Below are positions 12,940 through 33,717 of a DNA stretch of 64,000 nt, piece by piece. Below the pieces are notes generated by a model. That model had not been told where the DNA came from. It saw nothing but the letters and a program-made list of their open reading frames with translations, and made no database searches. Within the stretch, counting starts at the first letter, position 1; every line of letters begins with the position of its first letter. The position numbers and the translations under genes were made by a program. Source of the stretch: an uncultured Candidatus Saccharibacteria bacterium (GTDB lineage Bacteria; Patescibacteriota; Minisyncoccia; Phycocordibacterales; Zambryskibacteraceae). The stretch is taken from the NCBI GenBank assembly GCA_964355645.1, contig CAYHDI010000002.1, positions 11,452 to 75,451 on the forward strand, read 5' to 3'.

Positions 12940-12980
12940 CCCCTCTCCTTAATAAGGAGAGGGGCAGGGGTGAGGTGTAT
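12940..12980. repeat. GC-rich palindromic element, copy A (inner hairpin plus right outer arm)
   Basis: cccctctccttaataaggagaggggcaggggtgaggtgtat abuts the ftsZ stop codon. Confidence 0.6.
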
Positions 12981-14140
12981 TACTTCAATTTTGAACGACG
13001 GAGGAAAGCAGGCACGGCGCCCCAATCATCTTCGTTGTCATTCGCCGAAGGAGCAGGAGTGACTTCAGGCTTCTTTGTTTCCTCAACTTTTTCGCCCGGC
13101 TTTGTGAAGGAGTTGAAAATCTTGCCTTTGTCCCCATCATTTGAAGGAGTACCCCCGAACAAGGAAGTCGCTTTCTTCTGCATGTGCTCAGGGAAACTTG
13201 AAGCGATGACCGTAATCTTGAGTTCACCTTTTTTGAGTTTGTCATCCTTGACTGTCCCGAAAATAATCTTGGCATTCGGATCGACTGATTCGGTGATAAC
13301 CTTGGCTGCGTCTTGGATTTCAAACATAGTGAGGTCGTCTCCACCGGCGATAGAGAAGAGTACGCCCTTGGCCCCATTAATTGAGATTTCAAGAAGTGGA
13401 GAAGAGATGGCCATACGAGCCGCTTCCTCGGCGCGTTTCTCACCCGAAGCCCGTCCGATACCCATAAGTGCAGCACCTGCATTCTCCATGACCGCGCGAA
13501 TATCAGCGAAGTCAATGTTGATGATGCCCGGTGTAGTGATGAGGTCCGAGATTCCTTCAACGGCTTGTTTAAGAATGTTGTCGCAAGTGGCGAACGCATC
13601 CTTGGCTGTAGTGTCCTTGTCTATGGTTTGAAGAAGTCGGTCATTCGGAATGATGATGAGAGCGTCAACGGCTTGTTTGAGTTCATCTATAGCCACATCA
13701 GCAATTTTCATGCGTTGAATACCTTCGAAGAAGAAAGGCTTGGTAACTACAGCGACGGTGAGACAGCCAGCTTCCTTGGCTGTTCTCGCAATGACTGGAG
13801 CAGCCCCGGAAGCTGTCCCTCCTCCCATTCCGCAAGCAATGAAGACCATGTCTGCACCCTTGATGGCTTCTTGAATTTCTTCCTTCGTTTCTTCGACCGC
13901 GCGTTTACCCAAATCAGGATTCATCCCTGTACCCAAACCTCGAGTGAGGTTTTTCCCAATATGAATTTTCTTCTTGGCCAATGAGTGATGCAAATCTTGG
14001 GCATCTGTATTGACTGAAATGAAATCTACCCCCTTGACCTTCGAATTGATCATGTGGTTGATCGCGTTTTTCCCCGAACCTCCTACCCCGACGACCTTTA
14101 TCCTAGCGAAAGCTTCTACTTCTGGTTTGATTTGTGGCAT
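12980..14140 (-). CDS. ftsZ: cell division protein FtsZ
   Basis: It carries [13 protein letters not shown], a variant of the tubulin signature, and N-terminal [15 protein letters not shown]. Confidence 0.9.
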
Positions 14141-14792: not shown

Positions 14793-15182
14793 TCAAGCAA
14801 TCAAAAGCTTGATCTTTTGTTTTATCTCCACATAATCTTTTATGTCTAAAACCCCGATTTTATATTGTAAGCGTTTGGAATCTATCATTCTCAGTTGTGA
14901 AAGTATCACTGTATTAGAACCTCTATTCTCTAGACTAAAAGTAAAGTAGTATTCACCTTTTTTAGTTTTCTTTGTAAGTGGAATGGCCCAAAAACTTTCA
15001 TTATTAAATTTTCTTAACACAAGTACCGGACGACGGAACTCCTTACCCCTACCGTCTTCTTCAAATCCGATGTTGGCTCCGAGCGAGGCAAACCAAATTT
15101 CTCGTTCATGGAAGAAAGGCCTTTGTCTATCCTCGTGAATATCGCTTTTTTCTTTGTGCCATTCAGAAAAATCTTTTTTCAT
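14793..15182 (-). CDS. MazF/PemK-family mRNA interferase toxin-like protein
   Basis: ...EREIWFASLG...RRPVLVL...WAIPLT...TVILSQLRMIDSKRL..KIGVLD parallels MazF/NdoA in Bacillus (...RPVLVIQ...VILLEQIRTIDKQRLTDKI). It lies 16 bp downstream of ftsA. No upstream antitoxin gene is present. Confidence 0.6.
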   Translation of the reverse strand: MKKDFSEWHKEKSDIHEDRQRPFFHEREIWFASLGANIGFEEDGRGKEFRRPVLVLRKFNNESFWAIPLTKKTKKGEYYFTFSLENRGSNTVILSQLRMIDSKRLQYKIGVLDIKDYVEIKQKIKLLIA

Positions 15183-15198: not shown

Positions 15199-16410
15199 TT
15201 AAGGCAGGAATTGGGAGAACCAATCGGAAACTTGGCGCAAACCTTTTTTCCCAGACTCAGCCATTTTTTCTACATTTCCGAGACCAATTGAGCGTTGTTC
15301 GTTTTCAGCATTGAACCCGAGGACGGCGAGTCCGTAGGCGACCGACCAAGTTAAATCTTTTTGTTTTTTGTTTGATTCAGAATTTTCTTCTCCAAAATGA
15401 ATCTCAGCAATTCTTGAGGGAAGTTTCAAAGTACTTTCGGCCAATTCTTTAATCATCGAGAGCTTGGCTCCACCTCCAGTGATGACTATGCCGGCAGGCA
15501 AGAGAGCGTTGCGACCAATTTTCTTCAAATGTGTTTCAATCAGTTCAAACATATCTTCGAGCCGAGCAGAAATTATTTCATCCAGCTTTTTCTTAGAATA
15601 ATTTGAATTAGTGATAGAGCCTAGCTTGATTGATTCAGCTTCTTCGAGTGAAATTTTCAATCCGAGAGCTATGTCGTTCGTGATGTCTGTCCCGCCGATA
15701 GGGAAAACTTCGAGCGAAATGGGATTGCTGTTTTCAAAAACAATCATAGAAAGTGTTTCCGCTCCAACATTGACCAAGACCACCCCTGCTTTCTTTTGTT
15801 TCTTGTTTAAATTGACGAAGCTTGAAGCAATGGGCGAAGCGACGACGTCTATGACTTCAATATCTATTTCTTCTACTGCTTTGATTAAATTTTGAATATG
15901 ACTCTCGAGACACATAATGAAGAAAGTTTTCACATCGAGCTTCTCGGCTTTCAAACCCAGAGCCTGTCCCCACACGGTCTTCCCATCAATCTTGTATTCA
16001 ATCGGGATGGTGTTGATAATCTTTTTGTTCAAAGAAACCGAGTGGGGAATGGTCGCTTCAGCCGTTTCAAGAGCTTTGTTCACATCAAGGGCTGTGATTT
16101 CAAGGTCGGCCCTAGAAATGACTGTGGAACCGTTCGTGGTGATACCTGAAAGCCCGATGCCTCCGATAGAAACAAACGCTCGTTTAATTTTATAATTCGA
16201 TGACTTTTCTGCTTGGGCGACAGCCAGAGCGATAGCTTCTGAAGCCTCAGAAGTATTGGTGATGAAGCCGTGATGCAGGCCCTTTGATTCACTCGAACCA
16301 CTACCTATTATTTTTGAAAAAATTTTTCCTTCAGCGTGCAACTCTTCAGCTACTACAACTTTGATTTCGTGAGTGCCTATATCAATGCCTGTTGCTATTT
16401 GACGTGCCAT
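15199..16410 (-). CDS. ftsA: cell division protein FtsA
   Basis: It has the actin/Hsp70-fold N-terminus IATGIDIGTHEIKVVVAE... and the 3' end is ...ITGGGAKL. The start was trimmed to the second Met at 16410. Confidence 0.85.
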   Translation of the reverse strand: MARQIATGIDIGTHEIKVVVAEELHAEGKIFSKIIGSGSSESKGLHHGFITNTSEASEAIALAVAQAEKSSNYKIKRAFVSIGGIGLSGITTNGSTVISRADLEITALDVNKALETAEATIPHSVSLNKKIINTIPIEYKIDGKTVWGQALGLKAEKLDVKTFFIMCLESHIQNLIKAVEEIDIEVIDVVASPIASSFVNLNKKQKKAGVVLVNVGAETLSMIVFENSNPISLEVFPIGGTDITNDIALGLKISLEEAESIKLGSITNSNYSKKKLDEIISARLEDMFELIETHLKKIGRNALLPAGIVITGGGAKLSMIKELAESTLKLPSRIAEIHFGEENSESNKKQKDLTWSVAYGLAVLGFNAENEQRSIGLGNVEKMAESGKKGLRQVSDWFSQFLP

Positions 16411-16798
16411 GAATTTTAAATGTTTGGCGTAGTTTGGATTCCGCTTTCTCCATTGTACTGCCATGTCTCATTCCCTTCAAATGGCACAAACCGTGGACAA
16501 AGAGAAAACCGACGAAATTTTGAAAAGTTTGATTGAAAATAGGAGCCTCCTTCTTAGCTAGTTCGAGGTTTATGAAAATTTCTCCGGTTCCGCCAGTTGG
16601 CGGATTCGAGAGAGGAAACGAGAGAATGTTCGTCGGTTTGTTTTTCTGCCGATAAGTTTTGTTTAGTTGTTTAGAAAGTTTGTTGTTTATGAAAACCAGT
16701 GAAAGTGCGTAGGTCCGACCTAAGCAAGTGTTTTTGATTAATTCAAAATGAATTTTTGGAACAACCCTCCTTGTTTTTTTGGAAATTGAAAATGGCAA
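16382..16798 (-). CDS. ybeY: rRNA maturation RNase YbeY
   Basis: It carries the HGLCHLKGMRH (HxxxHxxGxxH) zinc motif at 138 aa. It overlaps the annotated ftsA start. Confidence 0.75.
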   Translation of the reverse strand: MPFSISKKTRRVVPKIHFELIKNTCLGRTYALSLVFINNKLSKQLNKTYRQKNKPTNILSFPLSNPPTGGTGEIFINLELAKKEAPIFNQTFQNFVGFLFVHGLCHLKGMRHGSTMEKAESKLRQTFKIHGTSNSNRH

Positions 16799-27063: not shown

Positions 27064-28359
27064 ATGTCAAAGTTTCAGCTCATTCTTCTCGTTTCATTCG
27101 GAGCCTTCATTATCATTGCTGTTCTCTTGTTCTCTTTCTATAGAAGCTCCGGAGGAACTCAAACAGCGAATATTGTGATTTGGGGAGATATTTCTGCCGA
27201 AGATTTCAATACACTTTCAAACAATGTCGGATTCGCGAATGACCGTACTCTCGTTCTTCAGTATTCCTTTAAAGATCCATCCACTTTCGACACTACTTTC
27301 ACCGAAGCTCTCGCTCTCGGCAGTGGACCGGACCTCGTGTTCCTTTCTCAAGACAAAATTTATAGAGAAAGAAACAAAATTCTCGTCATTCCTTCGTCTT
27401 CAGTTAGTCAGAAAGACTTCTCAAATACATTCATAGATGAAAGTGATTTGTTTCTAACTTCAAACGGAGTCTATGCCCTGCCTCTTTCTGTTGACCCACT
27501 TGTCCTCTACTACAACCGTGATTTACTTTCGAAAGCTTCCCTTGCTTTCCCGCCTGCGTTTTGGGATCAAATGTATAGCTACGCGAACAAGCTAACAACG
27601 AAGGACGGAGCAGGGAACATCACGAAGTCCGTCTTGGCTCTCGGCGAGGCGAAGAATATTCCAAATTCGAAAAACATCCTTTCTCTCCTGATGCTTCAAG
27701 CGGGCACACCTATCACCGATATCCCAAGCGATACTCAGACACCAAAACTACAAGCCGAGTTGACTAACAATTTCAATCTACCGCTTAATCCAGCGAATTC
27801 AGCTTTGGATTTTTATACTCAGTTCGCGAATCCAGCGAAGCCGTTTTATTCGTGGAATAGATCTCTCCGCAATGCGAATGTGAATTTTGTTTCTGGCGAC
27901 AGCGCGCTCTATATTGGATTTGCCAGTGAATTGCGCGAACTGCGAGCCAAGTCCCCAACTCTAAATATCGGAATCGCTCTCGTTCCTCAATCAAGGGTTT
28001 CAGGCAAATCGATGACGTACGGAACTCTACGAGGAGTGGCCATTTCGAAGGGCTCGAAGAATCCGAGCGCGGCTCTTCGAGCCGCGCTCCTCCTGTCCTC
28101 CGCGAACACGAGCCTCGCGTTGTCCAAAATCCTCCAACTTCCTCCTCCTCGTCGAGATTTGCTTTCGAACAAACCGACGGATACGGCCAGCGGTGTTTTC
28201 TATGACTCAGCCATTCAATCTCGCGGTTGGCTTGATCCAGATGATGCGGAGACGGCTTCGATTTTCACCAACATGATTGAATCAGTCACTTCCGGCCGAG
28301 CACGAGTGGATGAAGCTATAAGTACTGCGCAGGATCAAATTAATACTTTAATCAAATAA
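27064..28359 (+). CDS. membrane-anchored extracellular solute-binding-protein-like (SBP family 1-like)
   Basis: It has an N-terminal TM anchor and resembles periplasmic-binding proteins in its middle region (...YALPLSVDPLVLYYNRDLL...). Confidence 0.4.
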   Translation: MSKFQLILLVSFGAFIIIAVLLFSFYRSSGGTQTANIVIWGDISAEDFNTLSNNVGFANDRTLVLQYSFKDPSTFDTTFTEALALGSGPDLVFLSQDKIYRERNKILVIPSSSVSQKDFSNTFIDESDLFLTSNGVYALPLSVDPLVLYYNRDLLSKASLAFPPAFWDQMYSYANKLTTKDGAGNITKSVLALGEAKNIPNSKNILSLLMLQAGTPITDIPSDTQTPKLQAELTNNFNLPLNPANSALDFYTQFANPAKPFYSWNRSLRNANVNFVSGDSALYIGFASELRELRAKSPTLNIGIALVPQSRVSGKSMTYGTLRGVAISKGSKNPSAALRAALLLSSANTSLALSKILQLPPPRRDLLSNKPTDTASGVFYDSAIQSRGWLDPDDAETASIFTNMIESVTSGRARVDEAISTAQDQINTLIK

Positions 28360-28363
28360 ATTT

Positions 28364-28696
28364 ATGCCTGGATGGGAACCACTTATTGTTTGTAGCAATC
28401 CACCAGATTTTCCTAAAGCTTGTGATTTTAATGCCTTGATTCTGCTCGTGAATCACCTCATTACTGATTTGATTCTTCTTTCGACTCTATTTGCTACAGC
28501 GGGGTTTGTTTATGTCGGTATCAAGCTCCTCACAGCCGGAGGGGATGAAGGGGCGATGAAGTCGGCCAAGAGTTCTGCGTGGGCAATTCTCAAAGGATTC
28601 TTGTGGATACTTGTAGCTTGGGTTTTGGTTTATACTATTACCAATGTCTTATTAAGTTCATCAGGTTATTCACTTCTAGGCGCCCCAACAAAATAA
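28364..28696 (+). CDS. TrbC/VirB2-like small two-TM protein, paralog 1 of 6
   Basis: Its architecture is TM helix, then AGGDEGAMKSAK loop, then TM helix. Confidence 0.35.
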   Translation: MPGWEPLIVCSNPPDFPKACDFNALILLVNHLITDLILLSTLFATAGFVYVGIKLLTAGGDEGAMKSAKSSAWAILKGFLWILVAWVLVYTITNVLLSSSGYSLLGAPTK

Positions 28697-29104
28697 ATGA
28701 AAAAACATCTTCCATTTCTGCTTGTCCTCGTTCTTCTCTTGAGTTTTTCAACGATGATTGTTCACGCACAACAAGCCGCAGGTCAACCAGGAGGGTCTCA
28801 AGCAACAGGTAATACCCAAAAAATAAACACGGGCATAGAAAATCCATTTGGTCCAAATGGGCCCACGAATCTCAAAGACCTTTTCACCCTTTTGATTAAC
28901 AATTTGCTCATCCCAATCGGCGGAGTGGCCGCGGTGCTCGCGTTTATTTATTCGGGCTTTCTATATGTGATGGCTCAAGGTGATGAGACGAAGATTAAAA
29001 CTGCTCATCGGGCGCTTCTCTATACTTCTATAGGCACAGCCGTGCTCCTCGGCGCGTGGGTTATCTCAAATGTGATTAGTGCTACTATCAATCAACTCAA
29101 ATGA
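28697..29104 (+). CDS. TrbC/VirB2-like small two-TM protein, paralog 2 (with signal peptide)
   Basis: It has a signal peptide, then a TM helix, then the loop AQGDETKIKTAHR, then a second TM helix. Confidence 0.4.
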   Translation: MKKHLPFLLVLVLLLSFSTMIVHAQQAAGQPGGSQATGNTQKINTGIENPFGPNGPTNLKDLFTLLINNLLIPIGGVAAVLAFIYSGFLYVMAQGDETKIKTAHRALLYTSIGTAVLLGAWVISNVISATINQLK

Positions 29105-29502
29105 GCGCTCCAACAGATTTCAAAAGTTTAGTAGGAATATTCATTGATCTCATCAACACAGCTCTTCCTGTCCTCGCCGGAGTCGGTTTGCTTGTTTTCT
29201 TTTGGGGTCTAGCGAAATTTATTCGAAATGCGGGCGATGCGAAGAATCATCAGGAGGGGAAAGATTTAATGATATGGGGAATAGTGGGTTTGTTTGTGTT
29301 GTTTTCAGTTTGGGGAATTGTGGGGTTTGTTCAATCGAGTTTTGGTATCAGAAGTATGCCTTTCGGAATTCCTTATCTTCCATCAAGCAATAATTCACAA
29401 ACGGGATTTTGTACCTATCCTAACGGCACCGTTGTCTCGGGCTATAGCCCGGCACAGTGTTTATCGGCCAAGGGTGGATGGAGCCCTGCCAGCAATATTT
29501 AG
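29101..29502 (+). CDS. TrbC/VirB2-like small two-TM protein, paralog 3
   Basis: It has the FFWGLAKFIRNAGDAKNHQEGKDLMIWGIVGLFVLFSVWGIVGF core. Confidence 0.4.
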   Translation: MSAPTDFKSLVGIFIDLINTALPVLAGVGLLVFFWGLAKFIRNAGDAKNHQEGKDLMIWGIVGLFVLFSVWGIVGFVQSSFGIRSMPFGIPYLPSSNNSQTGFCTYPNGTVVSGYSPAQCLSAKGGWSPASNI

Positions 29503-29519
29503 GACAAAATTAAATAATT

Positions 29520-29765
29520 ATGAAAGCTTTGATTCAAGCCACTGGAGGTATCATAAATCAGCTGATTATTATTGTGGCTGGATTGGCCTTAATCTATTTC
29601 TTTTGGGGGTTAGCGAAATTTATTTTTCACGCTGGTGATGTTGAGAAGCACGAAGAAGGCAGAAACATCATGATTTGGGGCGTCGTCGCTCTATTCGTGA
29701 TGGTGTCTGTCTGGGGGTTATTGAATTTTATTAGCTCTGCTCTCAATATCTGGAGCACTGTTTGA
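29520..29765 (+). CDS. TrbC/VirB2-like small two-TM protein, paralog 4
   Basis: It has the FFWGLAKFIFHAGDVEKHEEGRNIMIWGVVALFVMVSVWGL core. Confidence 0.4.
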   Translation: MKALIQATGGIINQLIIIVAGLALIYFFWGLAKFIFHAGDVEKHEEGRNIMIWGVVALFVMVSVWGLLNFISSALNIWSTV

Positions 29766-29876
29766 TCTTTCGGTGCTTGTTTATAAGTGAATAACGGGGC
29801 TAGTATTCTGTCCATCCTCGGCGTATGATTAAAGCATACCGCATTCGGGTATATTAAAAGATAAATATATTTGTAA

Positions 29877-30224
29877 ATGAAAAGAATTATTCCGTTTCTT
29901 GTTCTGACGCCATTCCTTGCTTCGGCTCAGACGCTTGGTACTATTCCAACTTTGCTCAAGTCTGTAGGAAGCCTTATCAACACAGCCCTACCTATCGTGG
30001 TTGGACTGGCTCTTCTTGGGTTCTTCTGGGGATTGGCCATGTTCATTTTTGGCGCAAATGATGAAGAAAAACGCAAAGAGGGTCGTTCAATTATGATTTG
30101 GGGCGTCGTCGCTCTATTCGTGATGGTGGCTGTCTGGGGATTGGTAAACTTCATTGGAAGTGCTGTGGGTGTTGTTCCAGGAGCTGCTGGTATTCCGACA
30201 ATTCCGACCGTTCCAGCTAGATAA
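29877..30224 (+). CDS. TrbC/VirB2-like small two-TM protein, paralog 5 (with signal peptide)
   Basis: It has the FFWGLAMFIFGANDEEKRKEGRSIMIWGVVALFVMVAVWGL core. It shares a 48-bp DNA segment with paralog 4 with one mismatch. Confidence 0.4.
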   Translation: MKRIIPFLVLTPFLASAQTLGTIPTLLKSVGSLINTALPIVVGLALLGFFWGLAMFIFGANDEEKRKEGRSIMIWGVVALFVMVAVWGLVNFIGSAVGVVPGAAGIPTIPTVPAR

Positions 30225-30233
30225 TATTTCTGC

Positions 30234-30509
30234 TTGATGTCGATTGCCACGTTTCTAAACAAGATTAATGCAGCGATTCTTAATCCGCTCATAGGTTTGG
30301 TTTTCGCTGTGGCCACTATTGTGTTCATCTACGGTCTTGTTGAGTTCATTCGTTCAGAAACAGCGGACAAGGCCCGCGAAGCGGGCAAGAAGAAAATTCT
30401 CTATGGTCTCCTCGGAATGTTCATCATGTTCAGCGCTTACGGATTGATTCATCTGATTCTCGGAACATTCGGCATCCCGAATCCTCCGGGTGCTTACATT
30501 AGTTTCTAA
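30234..30509 (+). CDS. TrbC/VirB2-like small two-TM protein, paralog 6
   Basis: It has the same architecture with a diverged loop, ETADKAREAGKKKILYG. Confidence 0.35.
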   Translation: MMSIATFLNKINAAILNPLIGLVFAVATIVFIYGLVEFIRSETADKAREAGKKKILYGLLGMFIMFSAYGLIHLILGTFGIPNPPGAYISF

Positions 30510-30582: not shown

Positions 30583-31230
30583 CTACTTGTAGAATCGTAC
30601 GCCGATTCGGAGACTCGAATCACCGAGCGATTTGAACGCGATGGTTCTCACCATTCCGAATTGCACAGTTTCCATCTCCGGACGAATGGTGAATTTTCCA
30701 GCTTGAGTTGCCACGACGTACGGGACGTCGAGCTCCTCGGCATTCACTTCCATCGTGTAGCCTTTCCGCACTTCTCGGGGAAGCGTCCATGACTTGCCGA
30801 ATGTATTCGGCTGAGCTGTGAACCAAAATGTGGTATCGCTTGGGAACTGTGGATGCGTCTTCAAGTATTCGGCCTGAGCCTGAGCTTTGGCCATTTCCGC
30901 CTTCTGGTACTTCCCGTTGACCCACGGCCACACGATGAAGATGACGACGAGAGCGAAAATGGTCCAGCCCGCGAACTTCTGGAACCACTTGTGCGTGATA
31001 ACCGTGCCAGCTTTTGTTCGGCGATTCTCGTCCCAGGCAATCCAGGAGATGAGAGCGAGTAAAGCAAGCACTACCGCGGTGATCCACGTCCAGTGCCAGA
31101 CTCTTGACCAATCCACCGAACCGATGAAAAGGCTAAGAATCATAACCGCAACGATGAGCCCGATGACTGCACCGCCGGCTTGGAGCCTCTGTTTTCTGTT
31201 CATATCCCCTCCACGGGGAAATAGGTTCAA
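30583..31230 (-). CDS. membrane protein with C-terminal soluble domain (possible NfeD-like partner of the SPFH protein); GC-rich
   Basis: It has four predicted TM helices and a C-terminal domain of roughly 90 aa. It shares an operon and GC content with the SPFH gene. Confidence 0.35.
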   Translation of the reverse strand: MNLFPRGGDMNRKQRLQAGGAVIGLIVAVMILSLFIGSVDWSRVWHWTWITAVVLALLALISWIAWDENRRTKAGTVITHKWFQKFAGWTIFALVVIFIVWPWVNGKYQKAEMAKAQAQAEYLKTHPQFPSDTTFWFTAQPNTFGKSWTLPREVRKGYTMEVNAEELDVPYVVATQAGKFTIRPEMETVQFGMVRTIAFKSLGDSSLRIGVRFYK

Positions 31231-31314
31231 CTTCGTCTTTGCCCATTATACGCCCAAATTATATTTTGTCAAGTATGAAAAAGACTGGGAGATTTTTTGC
31301 CCAGTCTATGCACA

Positions 31315-32445
31315 TTACTTCGACCCAACGAGTTGGGCTGTCTTGCCTCCAACCACGAGAGTAGTAAGAGTTTTGTTCTCTCCGATTGCCTCGGCGAAAC
31401 GAATCCCCGCAGCGTTCGGAATTGCTCCGAGCGGAATGAGTACTCGAGTGACGCGATCAGCATCAGCGGTGTTCACAACCTTCTGTGCCTCGGCTTTTCC
31501 CTCACCGGCGAGGATGACAAGTTTCTTATCCTTCTCGGCTCGAGCGATGGCTGCCTTGTTCTCGCGCTCCGTGGTTTCTTGGAGTTCGAGAAGCGTACGT
31601 GTCTTCTCGTCCACATCGATGCCAAGAAGATTCGTAGTTCTGACCGTGATTCCAATCTTTTCTTCTATTTCTCCCTGCTTATCCATCACAGCCTTGACGA
31701 GGTCGTGTTTGTTGGAGACATCACCTTGGATGAAGTACTCAGGTTCTTGATTTCCCGTCGTGTTGTTTACGGCTTCCATCACCATCGCTGTGAGCACGGC
31801 GTTGGGGTCGGCCATTCCCAAAACGGCATGAACCGGATATTTCATCGCGTACAACAAGTTGAATTGCAAATCGAGCTCGTATGAGCCCATGGTTTCCGCA
31901 CCACGCACATCCACAGCTTGCTCGCGCGAGTAGTAGATGAACTTGGTGGAGAAATCCTTGCCTACGATTGAGTACACGTCGCGGTCTCCATCCTTGCCCT
32001 TCTTGAATCTGATTTCATGAACCTGATTTAGACGGAGAGAACGACCCCAGCCAATCCAGTGGATGCCGAAGAGGTAGTGAAGGAGTCCATATTCCTTTTC
32101 ACCATCCTCGAAGCACCACTTGAATGGATCTGGGTCATCGTCATTCAAGCGTTGGCCTGGAACGCCGTGGATAACTTTGTCGAGCTCACCATCAATGAGA
32201 TTGGATGCATCGGTTGAATCACTTGACGACCCCCAAGTGACAAGTGCGAAAGTATTCGCCGGAATGAAGCACCACCAGATCTCGTTGTAAGCGAGAATCC
32301 AGATGGTTCCAAGCACTAGTGTTACTAGTGCAAGGACGATGAGAAGGGAAATGAAAAGCGCTATCATTCTGTGCTCCCTGTGGCCATAGCCACGGAGTAA
32401 TGTGAAATGTGCATGAATCTTGCCTGTCGCGATTTTATCATACAA
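31315..32445 (-). CDS. SPFH/Band-7 (stomatin/prohibitin/flotillin) domain protein; GC-rich
   Basis: It has an N-terminal TM helix, a band-7 core and a C-terminal ...ILAGEGKAEAQK... Ala/Glu-rich coiled coil, typical of flotillin-like proteins. Confidence 0.65.
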   Translation of the reverse strand: MYDKIATGKIHAHFTLLRGYGHREHRMIALFISLLIVLALVTLVLGTIWILAYNEIWWCFIPANTFALVTWGSSSDSTDASNLIDGELDKVIHGVPGQRLNDDDPDPFKWCFEDGEKEYGLLHYLFGIHWIGWGRSLRLNQVHEIRFKKGKDGDRDVYSIVGKDFSTKFIYYSREQAVDVRGAETMGSYELDLQFNLLYAMKYPVHAVLGMADPNAVLTAMVMEAVNNTTGNQEPEYFIQGDVSNKHDLVKAVMDKQGEIEEKIGITVRTTNLLGIDVDEKTRTLLELQETTERENKAAIARAEKDKKLVILAGEGKAEAQKVVNTADADRVTRVLIPLGAIPNAAGIRFAEAIGENKTLTTLVVGGKTAQLVGSK

Positions 32446-32501
32446 AATCTACGAAGTCAAATAAAAAATACCAAACAAAAGTCTGGAATTTTTTGCATTG
32501 T

Positions 32502-32581
32502 GCCGAGGAGAGGACTTGAACCCCCACCCCTTGCGGGACCAGTTCCTAAAACTGGCGTGTCTACCATTTCACCACCTCGGC
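32502..32581 (-). tRNA. tRNA-Leu (anticodon TAG)
   Basis: The reverse complement is gccgaggtggtgaaatggtagacacgccagtttTAGgaactgg... with a long variable arm; the T-arm is ggttcaagtcc. Confidence 0.75.
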
Positions 32582-32585
32582 AGGG

Positions 32586-32658
32586 TGCGCCCAGTAGGAG
32601 TCGAACCTACGACCATCTCCTTAAGAGGGAGCTGCTCTACCAACTGAGCTATGGGCGC
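32586..32658 (-). tRNA. tRNA-Lys (anticodon CTT)
   Basis: The reverse complement is gcgcccatagctcagttggtagagcagctccctCTTaaggag...ggttcgactcc. Confidence 0.7.
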
Positions 32659-32729
32659 AAAACTTTTGTAACTTACAAACAATACCTAAAAAACAATTCT
32701 TTTTCAATTATGATAATGTATTAAAGAGT

Positions 32730-32801
32730 GGCCTAGTCGCCAAGTGGTAAGGCAAAGCTCTGCAAAAGCTTTATACGGCGGTTCGATTCCGCCCTAGGCC
32801 T
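32730..32801 (+). tRNA. tRNA-Cys (anticodon GCA)
   Basis: ggcctagtcgccaagtggtaaggcaaagctctGCAaaagcttt...ggttcgattccgccctaggcct. Confidence 0.75.
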
Positions 32802-32837
32802 CCTGTTCAAGAAAGTTTTGTTGTGTAGAATTAGATA

Positions 32838-33551
32838 ATGATTGATCGTGAAAAAATTAAACCTCAACATCTCTGGTATTTTATAGGATTGATTGTAACC
32901 GATGGAAATCTAAGTAAAAGTGGACGACATATTATTCTGACTTCTAAAGATAGAGAGCATCTATATTTAATTAAGAAGATTCTAGGGCTTACAAATGTTA
33001 TTGGCAGAAAGACTAGGGCTAGTTCAGAAGATAGATTATATTCTACCCTTCAGTTTGGAGATATTCGTTTTTATAAATACTTACAGAGCATAGGCATAAC
33101 CCAGAAAAAATCTCTTACTCTTGGAAAGATTGCAATAGACAAAAAATATTTCTGCGATTTTTTGAGAGGGGTAATTGATGGTGATGGCTATATTACTAGA
33201 TGGAAACATAAAAATAATGGGTTAAATCAGTGGGCTTTGGGCATTGTCTCTGCGGCTCCCGTATTTATTTGTTGGTTAAAAAATGAAATAGAGATACAGT
33301 TTAAAGTAAGGGGAAGGTTACACATTTATCTACCAAAAGGAAAGAAAAACCCTATAAACACATTAAAATTTGGGAAACTTGCTGGTAAGGTGATTATAAA
33401 AAATGTTTATTATAAGAATTCTTTTTGTCTGGAAAGAAAAAGACTCAAATGTGAAGAGTGTTTACTAGATAGGAATCGAATGGTAAATTATGGGGGTGTC
33501 ATTCGCCCGGGTGCTGAAATCGGTAGACAGCCTCGACTTAAAATCGAGTGA
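32838..33551 (+). CDS. LAGLIDADG homing endonuclease (double-motif)
   Basis: Two LAGLIDADG motifs are present: YFIGLIVTDGNL and DFLRGVIDGDGYI. The gene is AT-rich. Its last roughly 45 nt read into the 5' half of tRNA-Leu(TAA). Confidence 0.75.
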   Translation: MIDREKIKPQHLWYFIGLIVTDGNLSKSGRHIILTSKDREHLYLIKKILGLTNVIGRKTRASSEDRLYSTLQFGDIRFYKYLQSIGITQKKSLTLGKIAIDKKYFCDFLRGVIDGDGYITRWKHKNNGLNQWALGIVSAAPVFICWLKNEIEIQFKVRGRLHIYLPKGKKNPINTLKFGKLAGKVIIKNVYYKNSFCLERKRLKCEECLLDRNRMVNYGGVIRPGAEIGRQPRLKIE

Positions 33552-33588
33552 GGGAAACCTTGTGTGGGTTCGAGTCCCACCCCGGGCA
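33505..33588 (+). tRNA. tRNA-Leu (anticodon TAA)
   Basis: gcccgggtgctgaaatcggtagacagcctcgactTAAaatcgag... has a long variable arm; the T-arm is gggttcgagtccc. Confidence 0.75.
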
Positions 33589-33592
33589 CATT

Positions 33593-33663
33593 GCGGGTAT
33601 GGTTTAGTGGTAGAATGCGACCTTCCCAAGGTTGAGACCCGAGTTCGATTCTCGGTACCCGCA
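33593..33663 (+). tRNA. tRNA-Gly (anticodon CCC)
   Basis: gcgggtatggtttagtggtagaatgcgaccttCCCaaggttg...gagttcgattctcggtacccgca. Confidence 0.7.
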
Positions 33664-33717
33664 CACTTCTGCAAGCTCAGTGTAAACTATTATTTTATTT
33701 CATTCGTAATCTCGTCC

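What the first reader, a model, noticed from the sequence alone, without database searches (positions are those of the whole stretch)
28364..30509. Tandem array of six TrbC/VirB2-like two-TM mini-proteins with evidence of recent gene conversion
Six consecutive 81-135-aa paralogs share the architecture hydrophobic helix, then a charged AGD/GDE..K..EGR loop, then a hydrophobic helix. The most conserved core is FFWGLAKFI..AGD.EK.EEGR.IMIWGVVALFVMVSVWGL. Two have signal peptides. Paralogs 4 and 5 share a 48-bp DNA stretch with one mismatch (29670-29716 versus 30093-30139) despite otherwise diverged sequence, indicating ongoing gene conversion. No prepilin-peptidase motif is present, so these are not type IV pilins. 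They resemble conjugative-pilin-like (VirB2/TrbC) subunits, with no other T4SS genes nearby. In an episymbiont-like reduced genome, such arrays could build surface filaments for host attachment or DNA uptake; dprA is also in this window.
Basis: partly seen in the sequence, partly recalled or inferred. Interest (0 to 1): 0.55.

Follow-up and report, generated by a model that had tools for sequence, protein, structure and literature searches.

The report
Six-gene pilin-like operon in Patescibacteria
Six small membrane-protein genes in a row belong to the "type IV secretion pilin" family, which is already known to form such arrays in ultrasmall Patescibacteria, so this is a new example of a known kind; what is new is that the six positions are conserved one-for-one across about 70 related genomes.

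Summary
Six consecutive + strand genes (28364-30509; 110, 135, 133, 81, 115 and 91 aa) encode helix / charged loop / helix proteins. Two have signal peptides. P4 and P5 share 47 bp with one mismatch.

The interpretation largely holds. P2-P6 pass Pfam PF18895 (T4SS_pilin). P2 also passes PF04956 (TrbC/VirB2). P1 joins by profile-profile comparison. No T4SS gene lies in the 64-kb window or within 10 kb of the array in 76 related loci.

The kind is already published. VirB2-like pilin arrays of 2-11 genes are reported in 383 Patescibacteria assemblies, and a six-gene array is essential in Southlakia epibionticum.

New here:
- The locus gyrA-(methyltransferase)-MalE-like binding protein-P1-P2-P3-P4-P5-P6 is conserved in order across Paceibacteria species, with its own ortholog at each position. 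It is therefore an old, non-redundant set, not a recent expansion.
- Only the P4/P5 class duplicates or converts. A short P5-to-P4 conversion can be polarised with two outgroups.
- A conserved promoter/operator-like element precedes P5.
- dN/dS is 0.03-0.22, which gives no sign of diversifying selection.

Best reading: subunits of a heteromeric T4SS-associated surface filament. This function is inferred, not shown.

The parts
27064..28359 (+). MalE-like solute-binding protein (431 aa) with an N-terminal membrane anchor. It is the conserved gene immediately upstream and is probably co-transcribed with the array.
   Evidence: Pfam SBP_bac_8 (58.0 bits) and SBP_bac_1 (48.1 bits). The nearest solved relatives are maltose/sugar-binding proteins. 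It is present next to the array in 69 of 76 related loci. The gap to P1 has a median of 0 nt, and 94% of gaps are 30 nt or less. dN/dS is 0.03.
28364..28696 (+). P1, pilin-like protein of subfamily A (110 aa). It has a conserved N-terminal Cys..Cys-x-Phe loop and no signal peptide in this lineage.
   Evidence: PF18895 scores 20.4 bits, below the 26.6 cut-off. hhalign of the P1 ortholog alignment against P2 gives 99.5% probability, and 96.5-96.9% against P3-P6. Its ortholog is always the first gene of the array, and a same-genome paralog is the best hit in 0 of 51 cases. 29 of 41 orthologs have exactly two Cys, and about half carry a signal peptide.
28697..29104 (+). P2, pilin-like protein of subfamily A (135 aa) with a Sec signal peptide. 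It is the most TrbC/VirB2-like member.
   Evidence: PF18895 35.2 bits and PF04956 TrbC 29.0 bits, both above their cut-offs. Signal peptide MKKHLPFLLVLVLLLSFSTMIVHA|QQ. It evolves fastest of the six, with dN/dS 0.22.
29101..29502 (+). P3, pilin-like protein of subfamily B (133 aa). It has a lineage-specific C-terminal tail with two Cys.
   Evidence: PF18895 39.0 bits. Orthologs hold the third position. The tail is absent in L007, whose P3 is 99 aa.
29520..29765 (+). P4, minimal pilin-like protein of subfamily B (81 aa). It is the recipient of the gene conversion.
   Evidence: PF18895 41.1 bits. The AlphaFold2 model is a helical hairpin with pLDDT 83.9. All 120 listed homologs carry PF18895, and some are named 'pilin' by NCBI.
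29670..29716 (+). Near-identical tract in P4. The converted core is 29682-29691.
   Evidence: 46/47 identical to 30093-30139. At five clustered sites (29682, 29684, 29685, 29687, 29691) the window's P4 equals P5, but differs from P4 of the congener L078. P4 of L007 also has Ile-Ile where the window has Val-Val.
29824..29859 (+). Conserved element in the P4-P5 spacer: TATGAT, 6 nt, then the inverted repeat ATACC-N7-GGTAT, then ATTAAAA. It is a candidate internal promoter (-10 box) with an operator or 5' hairpin.
   Evidence: The motif is present in 17 of 60 spacers upstream of the P5-position gene; shuffled spacers give a mean of 0.29. The spacer before P5 is conserved in length (median 90-102 nt), while the other genes abut each other. 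This is the only ATACC-N4-8-GGTAT in the window, where 0.04 is expected. The generic sigma-70 scan did not call it.
29877..30224 (+). P5, pilin-like protein of subfamily B (115 aa) with a Sec signal peptide. It is the donor of the conversion and the candidate major subunit.
   Evidence: PF18895 40.3 bits. Signal peptide MKRIIPFLVLTPFLASA|QT. The P4/P5 class is the only one that varies in copy number (1-5) or has same-genome best hits (27 of 170).
30093..30139 (+). Donor tract in P5.
   Evidence: The peptide MIWGVVALFVMVAVWG is identical in P5 of the window, L078 and L007.
30234..30509 (+). P6, pilin-like protein of subfamily B (91 aa). It is always the last gene and is the most constrained.
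   Evidence: PF18895 30.9 bits. A same-genome paralog is the best hit in 0 of 68 cases. It is 96.7% identical in amino acids to L078, with dN/dS 0.03.
26527..27051 (+). SAM-dependent methyltransferase (174 aa). It is a frequent upstream neighbour and may be the first gene of the operon. Whether it belongs functionally is doubtful.
   Evidence: Pfam Methyltransf_31 and related families. Present in 50 loci. The gap to the binding-protein gene has a median of 14 nt. A GC-rich palindrome at 26479-26502 lies just upstream.

Best explanation
The six genes encode members of the Patescibacteria 'T4SS_pilin' family (PF18895, remotely related to TrbC/VirB2). Each product is a roughly 70-residue hairpin of two membrane helices joined by a short charged loop.

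Proposed mechanism; only the first step is partly shown, and the rest is inferred from VirB2/TraA biology and from the Saccharibacteria work:
1. The proteins are inserted into the cytoplasmic membrane. P2 and P5 go through Sec and lose their signal peptides to signal peptidase I. The others have short N-tails.
2. A VirB4-type type IV secretion machine, encoded elsewhere in the genome, extracts them.
3. They are polymerised into a surface filament or conduit that contacts the host cell. Their variable N- and C-terminal tails face outward.

Each of the six positions has its own ortholog across about 70 species. The set is therefore best read as one heteromeric assembly with fixed roles, not as interchangeable variants:
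- P1, P2, P3 and P6 are single-copy specialised subunits. P1 or P2 sometimes carries a large extra domain.
- The P4/P5 class is the abundant core subunit. It has variable copy number, undergoes occasional gene conversion, and has its own promoter-like element in front of P5.

The source organism is a groundwater member of class Paceibacteria, close to Ca. Zambryskibacteria.
For: - Family membership: PF18895 is above its cut-off for P2-P6 and PF04956 for P2. All six are homologous by hhalign, in two subfamilies: {P1,P2} at 99.5% and {P3-P6} at 99.7% or more. The model is a helical hairpin. Homologs carry PF18895 and are named 'pilin'.
- Fixed set: the order gyrA-(MTase)-SBP-P1-P2-P3-P4/5-P5-P6 recurs in most of the 76 loci, and the modal array size is 6, in 40 loci. 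Best hits are orthologs at the same position for P1 and P6 (0/51 and 0/68 have same-genome best hits). P4 and P5 show 4/40 and 23/130.
- Selection: purifying in all six, with dN/dS 0.03-0.22.
- Operon packing: the genes abut, except for a conserved spacer of about 100 nt with a motif before P5.
- Link to T4SS from the literature: pilin genes lie near virB4 in 1,135 of 1,948 Patescibacteria assemblies, and arrays of 2-11 genes occur in 383 assemblies (PMC12102498). The six PF18895 genes SEML1_0014-0019 sit in the S. epibionticum T4SS cluster, and those whose rows were read in the Tn-seq table are scored essential (PMC10633639; PMC12857230).
- VirB4 is reported in 4 of 8 relatives that carry this same locus.
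- Weak direct hint: the best PDB sequence hit of the P3-P6 profile is the pKM101 VirB2-type pilin TraM (8cw4), at E = 0.051.
Against: - No T4SS gene lies within 28 kb on either side here, or within 10 kb in any of the 76 related loci.
- The published survey found no VirB4 in 4 of 8 array-bearing relatives. All eight are draft MAGs, so absence is not proven.
- Whether this genome has VirB4 could not be tested.
- In the papers read here, a T4SS pilus in Patescibacteria is discussed only as a possibility, and the role of the T4SS is called completely unknown (PMC11665869).
Confidence: 0.6

Rival explanations
1. The array is a variation cassette. The paralogs are alternative versions of one pilin, used to change the surface or the host range, and gene conversion shuffles sequence among them, as proposed for the virB2 paralogs of Bartonella and Anaplasma.
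For: PMC12102498 offers this reading for Patescibacteria arrays. A conversion tract exists between P4 and P5. The P4/P5 class varies from 1 to 5 copies, and L042 has two identical copies. P2 and P5 evolve fastest, and the tails vary in length.
Against: Each position has its own ortholog across about 70 species, and P1, P2, P3 and P6 almost never duplicate. All six genes are complete and tightly packed in one operon. dN/dS is 0.03-0.22, which is purifying. The conversion makes P4 more like P5 rather than more diverse. In S. epibionticum the array pilins whose Tn-seq rows were read are scored essential, which interchangeable copies would not be.
Confidence: 0.12
2. The six proteins form a membrane complex that is independent of T4SS and works with the co-transcribed MalE-like binding protein. 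This could be an uptake or envelope device: six two-helix proteins give twelve membrane helices. On this reading the Pfam name 'pilin' is misleading for this clade.
For: The binding-protein gene abuts P1 (median gap 0 nt) in 50 loci and neighbours the array in 69 of 76. It is as constrained as P6, with dN/dS 0.03. No permease or ATPase gene and no T4SS gene lies within 10 kb in any locus. VirB4 was not detected in 4 of 8 relatives. The link to real VirB2 is remote.
Against: gyrA is conserved beside the locus as well (58 loci), so adjacency may simply reflect frozen synteny in this clade. The same protein family sits inside T4SS clusters in other classes, with no binding protein listed in the S. 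epibionticum T4SS cluster (SEML1_0006-0019) in the table rows read. Arrays without the binding protein exist (L035). Signal peptides and outward-facing variable tails fit a secreted polymer better than a transporter.
Confidence: 0.15
3. The P4-P5 near-identity is not gene conversion. It reflects strong constraint on the peptide and its codons, or an assembly artefact.
For: The tract encodes the most conserved peptide of the family, MIWGVVALFVMV(S/A)VWG. In the sister species P4 and P5 already share 40/47 there, against 51% elsewhere. Of the two differences between the window and strain contig L001, the one at 29706 is better explained as a point mutation in the window strain.
Against: Identical or near-identical peptides in other genomes reach at most 44/48 at the DNA level in 6,594 pairs, against 46/48 here. 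Five clustered substitutions relative to P4 of the congener all match P5, whereas only 7 of the other 29 differences do. Two outgroups show Ile-Ile to be ancestral in P4. Two independent assemblies agree.
Confidence: 0.1

Closest known systems
VirB2-like pilin arrays of Patescibacteria: the S. epibionticum ML1 genes SEML1_0014-0019 (Wang et al. 2023, PMC10633639), and the 441 arrays surveyed by Quinonero-Coronel et al. 2025 (PMC12102498)
   Same: Same Pfam family (PF18895, partly PF04956). Same phylum. Same number of genes as in S. epibionticum (six). Similar low pairwise identity: mean 28.7% here against 25% reported. Some members have Sec signal peptides.
   Different: This array is unlinked to any T4SS gene. 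It is embedded in a conserved gyrA / MalE-like binding protein / pilin locus of class Paceibacteria. [quoted passage not shown] The P4-P5 identity of 60% exceeds the reported maximum of 54%. Position-by-position orthology, the restriction of turnover to one class, and the element before P5 were not found in the parts of these papers that I read. The term searches for gyrA and for solute- or substrate-binding returned nothing.
TrbC/VirB2 conjugative pilins of diderm T4SS (PF04956; for example pKM101/R46 TraM, PDB 8cw4)
   Same: Small size. A signal peptide in some members. Two hydrophobic helices around a short polar loop. P2 passes the PF04956 cut-off.
   Different: The genes are not beside virB3/virB4, as traM is in R46. 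The organism is a monoderm. There are six distinct paralogs rather than one major pilin. Profile-profile comparison with the TraM family was not significant. Cyclisation and lipid-bound polymerisation are unknown.
Mbov_0395 / ICE_MMCAP2_0565 pilin-like conjugal transfer proteins of mycoplasma ICEs (NCBIfam NF045849)
   Same: This is the best NCBIfam match for P2-P6, covering nearly the whole 80-residue model. It is also a wall-less or monoderm setting.
   Different: All scores (26-32 bits) fall below the family cut-off of 40, so these are not members. The setting is chromosomal, not an ICE.
Multi-copy virB2 paralogs of Bartonella and Anaplasma T4SS
   Same: Tandem pilin paralogs in a host-dependent bacterium, with sequence exchange between copies.
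   Different: Those paralogs are thought to serve antigenic or host-range variation (as cited in PMC12102498). Here the copies are ancient, position-specific and under purifying selection.

Membership tests
Pfam PF18895 T4SS_pilin | HMM score at or above the gathering score (26.6 bits) | tested here: met
   P2 35.2, P3 39.0, P4 41.1, P5 40.3 and P6 30.9 bits. P1 scores 20.4 bits (E = 5e-4), below the cut-off. P1 is tied to the family by hhalign: 99.5% against P2 orthologs and 96.5-96.9% against P3-P6.
Pfam PF18895 T4SS_pilin | A domain of about 70 residues made of two hydrophobic helices and a short charged loop | tested here: met
   Hydropathy segments in all six. AlphaFold2 model of P4: helices 2-36 and 41-74, pLDDT 83.9. 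Loops are listed.
Pfam PF04956 TrbC/VirB2 pilin | HMM score at or above the gathering score (27.9 bits) | tested here: inconclusive
   Met by P2 only (29.0 bits, E = 1.3e-6). P6 scores 14.6 bits. P1, P3, P4 and P5 have no hit.
Pfam PF04956 TrbC/VirB2 pilin | Detectable homology to an experimentally characterised VirB2 pilin | tested here: not met
   hhalign of each position-wise alignment against a 17-sequence IncN TraM alignment gives probabilities of 0.2-21%. A PDB profile search with P3-P6 finds TraM (8cw4) as the best hit, but only at E = 0.051. The P2 profile finds nothing. tblastn of P2 against 72,556 plasmids finds no match. The TraM template was shallow (Neff 2.4), so this is a weak negative.
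Pfam PF04956 TrbC/VirB2 pilin | Encoded next to virB3/virB4 in a T4SS gene cluster | tested here: not met
   No VirB3, VirB4, VirB6 or VirD4 family hit in any sizeable ORF of the 64-kb window, nor in the recurrent large ORFs within 10 kb in 76 related loci. For contrast, see R46.
Pfam PF04956 TrbC/VirB2 pilin | Signal-peptide cleavage, head-to-tail cyclisation in some members, and polymerisation with phospholipid into a pilus | not testable with these tools
   Only the predicted signal peptides of P2 and P5, with conserved Ala-Gln cleavage sites in their orthologs, can be read from sequence.
Patescibacteria VirB2-like pilin array (PMC12102498, PMC10633639) | Two or more PF18895/PF04956 genes in tandem in a Patescibacteria genome, with low identity between copies | tested here: met
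   Six adjacent genes. Mean pairwise identity 28.7%, range 17-60%. All 76 related loci are Patescibacteria MAGs, and the exact P5 protein occurs in a Hainich groundwater 0.2-um metagenome.
Patescibacteria VirB2-like pilin array (PMC12102498, PMC10633639) | A VirB4-type T4SS encoded in the same genome | not testable with these tools
   Only 64 kb of this genome is available. In relatives with the same locus, Table S1 of PMC12102498 lists VirB4 as present in 4 (L037, L050, L056, L073) and absent in 4 (L005, L043, L052, L009). All eight are draft MAGs.
Type IV pilins (T4P/T2SS pseudopilins) | A class III signal peptide with a G|F(T/S)L(I)E prepilin-peptidase site, followed by one long hydrophobic helix | tested here: not met
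   No such motif occurs in the first 45 residues of any of the six. The architecture is a two-helix hairpin.
NCBIfam NF045849 Mbov_0395 pilin-like conjugal transfer protein | Score at or above the curated cut-off (40 bits) | tested here: not met
   26.1-32.1 bits for P2-P6 and no hit for P1.

The most novel reading that the evidence does not exclude
The locus encodes an obligately heteromeric filament or conduit built from six non-interchangeable VirB2-like subunits. That would be unlike every characterised conjugative pilus, which is one major pilin plus a VirB5 tip. It would be produced together with a membrane-anchored MalE-like binding protein, with a separately controlled core subunit (P5) behind its own promoter/operator. 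Such an apparatus could be the missing route by which Paceibacteria take material from their hosts. It may also persist in lineages that have no detectable VirB4.
Probability: 0.2. Interest if true: 0.7.

Novelty: new member of a known kind. Interest (0 to 1): 0.35.

Why it matters
Patescibacteria make up a large share of bacterial diversity, yet how they obtain material from their hosts is unknown. Their T4SS and its pilin array are essential in the one species tested, and the function is described as completely unknown (PMC11665869).

The window itself adds only one more array. The comparison made here, however, sharpens the question in three ways:
- In Paceibacteria the six genes are a fixed, ancient set with one ortholog per position. 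This argues for a heteromeric structure and against antigenic variation.
- The locus is physically separate from the T4SS genes and is coupled to a sugar-binding-protein gene.
- One subunit class behaves like a major subunit.

These are concrete, testable predictions for groups that can now manipulate or image such organisms.

Tried and rejected
- Direct links to classical VirB2:
  - tblastn of P2 against all PLSDB plasmids found no match.
  - The P2 ortholog profile against PDB sequences found no match.
  - hhalign against an IncN TraM alignment built was not significant.
- Type IV pilin reading: rejected, because there is no prepilin motif.
- dprA / DNA-uptake link: rejected as unsupported. 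dprA is 16 kb away among topA and serS and is not part of the conserved synteny.
- Recent tandem expansion: rejected by the position-specific orthology.
- Diversifying selection: pairwise NG86 against the congener L078 shows dN/dS of 0.22 or less in every gene and sub-region tested, except the P5 signal peptide at 0.39. Site-specific tests were not run.
- 'Ongoing conversion' read from the two SNPs against strain contig L001: only partly upheld. G at 29706 is also the ancestral P4 state, so only 29717 could be conversion.
- The first attempt to scan genomes with all six paralogs aligned failed for lack of a conserved block. A P3-P5 core alignment worked.
- The generic sigma-70 and terminator scan gave nothing above shuffled expectation in the operon.
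Full report
**What is there.**
The stretch 28364-30509 holds six consecutive + strand genes: P1 (110 aa), P2 (135), P3 (133), P4 (81), P5 (115) and P6 (91). They abut or overlap, with gaps of 0, -4, 17 and 9 nt, except for a 111-nt spacer before P5.
All six share the same plan: a hydrophobic helix, a short charged loop, then a second hydrophobic helix. An AlphaFold2 model of P4, built with a 62-sequence alignment, is a helical hairpin with helices 2-36 and 41-74 and pLDDT 83.9.
P2 and P5 start with Sec-type signal peptides that end in Ala|Gln. The other four do not. None has a prepilin-peptidase site.

**Family.**
Pfam places P2-P6 in PF18895 (T4SS_pilin) at 30.9-41.1 bits, against a gathering score of 26.6. 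P2 also scores 29.0 bits in PF04956 (TrbC/VirB2), against 27.9. P1 reaches only 20.4 bits.
The best NCBIfam match is the mycoplasma ICE pilin-like family NF045849, but every score is below its cut-off.
Position-wise ortholog alignments compared by hhalign show that all six are homologous. They fall into two subfamilies: {P1,P2} at 99.5% probability and {P3,P4,P5,P6} at 99.7% or more. Cross-comparisons give 96.5-98.4%.
A database search with P4 returned 346 relatives. All 120 listed carry PF18895, and those with a name are called 'pilin' or hypothetical.
The tie to experimentally known VirB2 pilins is remote:
- The best PDB sequence hit of the P3-P6 profile is the pKM101 pilin TraM, at E = 0.051.
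- The P2 profile finds nothing in the PDB.
- P2 finds nothing in 72,556 plasmids.
- hhalign against an IncN TraM alignment is not significant.
- Fold searches return only generic hairpins.

**Surroundings.**
The window is a housekeeping stretch of a chromosome. It holds valS-type tRNA ligase, tsaD, phosphoketolase, acetate kinase, ftsZ, ftsA, signal peptidase I, pth, S1 protein, gyrA, IF-2, clpB, miaA, parB, topA, dprA, serS, dus, dnaX and 12 tRNAs. No VirB3, VirB4, VirB6, VirB8 or VirD4 family was hit.
Upstream of P1 lie gyrA (22775-25222), a DUF3800 gene, a methyltransferase (26527-27051) and a membrane-anchored MalE-like solute-binding protein (27064-28359), whose stop codon is 4 nt before P1. 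Downstream, two convergent genes occupy a GC-richer patch.

**Origin.**
The exact P5 protein occurs on a contig from a Hainich groundwater 0.2-um metagenome. A scan of one genome per species found 76 related loci, all of them Patescibacteria MAGs. Most are labelled Parcubacteria or Paceibacteria, including Zambryski-, Kaiser-, Wolfe- and Nomurabacteria. A congener (L078, gyrA 97.9% identical in amino acids) came from a Logan assembly.

**The main new result.**
In these loci the order gyrA-(methyltransferase)-binding protein-P1-P2-P3-P4/P5-P5-P6 is conserved:
- The binding protein is present in 69 loci and gyrA in 58.
- The modal number of pilin genes is six, in 40 loci. The range is 4-9 where the array is complete.
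- Each position has its own ortholog. The best hit of a P1 or P6 protein is never a paralog from its own genome (0/51 and 0/68). It rarely is for P2 (2/81) and P3 (4/75), and more often for P4 (4/40) and P5 (23/130).
- One genome (L042) has two identical P5 copies. Others have up to five P4/P5-class genes.
- In L015 and L063 the first-position pilin carries a large N-terminal domain, giving proteins of 671 and 461 aa.

The array is therefore an old, fixed set. Turnover is confined to one class.
Against the congener L078, all six genes are under purifying selection, with dN/dS of 0.08, 0.22, 0.08, 0.07, 0.18 and 0.03 for P1-P6. The binding protein (0.03) is as constrained as gyrA (0.02).

**Gene conversion.**
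P4 (29670-29716) and P5 (30093-30139) are identical at 46 of 47 positions, while the rest of the two genes is 53% identical.
- Permuting the mismatch positions never reproduces this (0 of 200,000). The run of ten identical synonymous codons has p = 0.002.
- The same stretch compared between genomes reaches at most 44/48 in 6,594 pairs.
- The tract is also the most conserved part of the family. In L078, P4 and P5 already share 40/47 there. What is specific to the window lineage is a cluster of five substitutions at 29682-29691, which turn the Ile-Ile codons of P4 into the Val-Val codons of P5.
- P4 of both L078 and L007 has Ile-Ile, and P5 of all three genomes has Val-Val. The direction is therefore P5 to P4. 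The tract is between 10 and 36 bp long.
- A near-identical strain contig (L001) differs from the window at only two sites in 1,065 bp, and both lie in or next to the tract. G at 29706 is the ancestral P4 state. A at 29717 matches P5.

Conversion is real but small. It homogenises the two copies rather than diversifying them.

**A regulatory element.**
Across the loci, genes from the binding protein to P4 are packed tightly, with median gaps of 0-10 nt. A spacer of about 90-100 nt precedes the P5-position gene.
In 17 of 60 such spacers, all from the closer relatives, there is a shared motif: TAT(C/G/T)AT, 7 nt, TACC, 4-8 nt, GGTAT, usually followed by ATTAAAA. Shuffled spacers give a mean of 0.29.
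In the window the motif lies at 29824-29859, and it holds the only ATACC-N4-8-GGTAT in 64 kb. I read it as a -10 box followed by an operator or 5' hairpin, but this is inference. The palindrome arms never vary, so there is no covariation to support an RNA structure.

**What is already known.**
- Wang et al. [quoted passage not shown] Their tables list SEML1_0014-0016 with PF18895 and SEML1_0019 as 'pilin', and SEML1_0017-0019 are scored essential.
- A review counts six structurally conserved, sequence-divergent VirB2-like pilins there. It calls the possibility of a pilus in a monoderm 'intriguing' (PMC12857230).
- Quinonero-Coronel et al. (PMC12102498) used PF18895 and PF04956 on 3,035 genomes. 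They found VirB4 in 2,417 assemblies and pilins in 1,948 assemblies that also had VirB4. The pilin gene lay near virB4 in 1,135 of these. They also found 441 arrays of 2-11 pilin genes in 383 assemblies, with mean identity 25% and maximum 54%.
- In Paceibacteria, virB4 tends to lie near dnaA and dnaN.
- The function of the T4SS is described as completely unknown (PMC11665869).

The finding is therefore a new member of a published kind. The gyrA / binding-protein linkage, the one-to-one positional orthology and the P5 element did not appear in the passages I read. Term searches for gyrA and for solute- or substrate-binding returned nothing. I did not read every figure or supplement.

**Does the genome have a T4SS?**
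Table S1 of PMC12102498 covers eight MAGs that carry this same locus. VirB4 is listed as present in four and absent in four, and all eight are drafts. This keeps a T4SS-independent role open.

**Verdict.**
The best reading is a fixed six-subunit, T4SS-associated surface filament with a P4/P5-class core subunit (confidence 0.6). The rivals are a variation cassette (0.12) and a T4SS-independent complex working with the binding protein (0.15). Novelty: a new member of a known kind. Interest: 0.35.

Noticed in passing
window 25230-25997 (+): A DUF3800 gene sits between gyrA and the methyltransferase only in this genome. It has no counterpart in any of the 76 related loci or in the congener L078, so it looks like a recent insertion.
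   Followed up: partly
window 30583-32445 (-): Two convergent genes lie just after P6 in a patch with GC 0.507, against about 0.42 elsewhere: a 215-aa membrane protein and a 376-aa protein with a weak SPFH/Band 7 hit. The SPFH-like gene recurs downstream of the array in a dozen or more loci; the membrane protein almost never does.
   Followed up: partly
window 32838-33551 (+), within the tRNA cluster 32500-33664: A LAGLIDADG homing-endonuclease-like ORF lies between tRNA-Cys and tRNA-Leu(taa), and its end overlaps the tRNA-Leu gene (33505-33589). Homologs lie downstream of the pilin arrays in L019 and L057.
   Followed up: no
window 14793-15182 (-): A PemK/MazF-type toxin gene is wedged between ftsZ (12980-14140) and ftsA (15199-16464).
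   Followed up: no
window 26479-26502: An inverted repeat with a perfect 10-bp, all-G+C stem and a 4-nt loop (GCCCCGGCGCG AA CGCGCCGGGGC) lies in the 530-bp gap between the DUF3800 gene and the methyltransferase. It probably acts as a bidirectional terminator that separates gyrA from the pilin operon.
   Followed up: no
window 29824-29859; the same position in L007, L014, L023-L025, L027, L029, L037, L043, L051-L054, L059 and L064: A conserved TATNAT - TACC-N4-8-GGTAT - ATTAAAA motif lies in the spacer before the P5-position gene (17 of 60 spacers; 0.29 expected). It is a candidate internal promoter plus operator.
   Followed up: partly
L015 6640-8655 and L063 8064-9449: First-position pilin genes encode 671-aa and 461-aa proteins. 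The PF18895 domain is at the C-terminus, behind a large unannotated N-terminal region. These may be adhesin-bearing subunits.
   Followed up: no
L035 9830-10607: Two P5-like PF18895 genes sit in a different context, directly after a 462-aa protein with a DUF2807 adhesin-head domain. There is no gyrA or binding-protein gene nearby.
   Followed up: partly
L042 9875 and 10484: Two P5-class genes in one genome encode identical 109-aa stretches. This indicates a very recent duplication or a full-length conversion.
   Followed up: no
L063 13007-14722: A PilB-like T2SSE ATPase gene lies about 3.5 kb downstream of the array in this one locus. It belongs to the type IV pilus / T2SS class, not to T4SS.
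   Followed up: no
window 1-64000: Cumulative GC skew has its minimum near 14-16 kb, and gene orientation switches from mostly - strand to mostly + strand around 20.7-21.7 kb. No dnaA or dnaN was found in the window.
   Followed up: no
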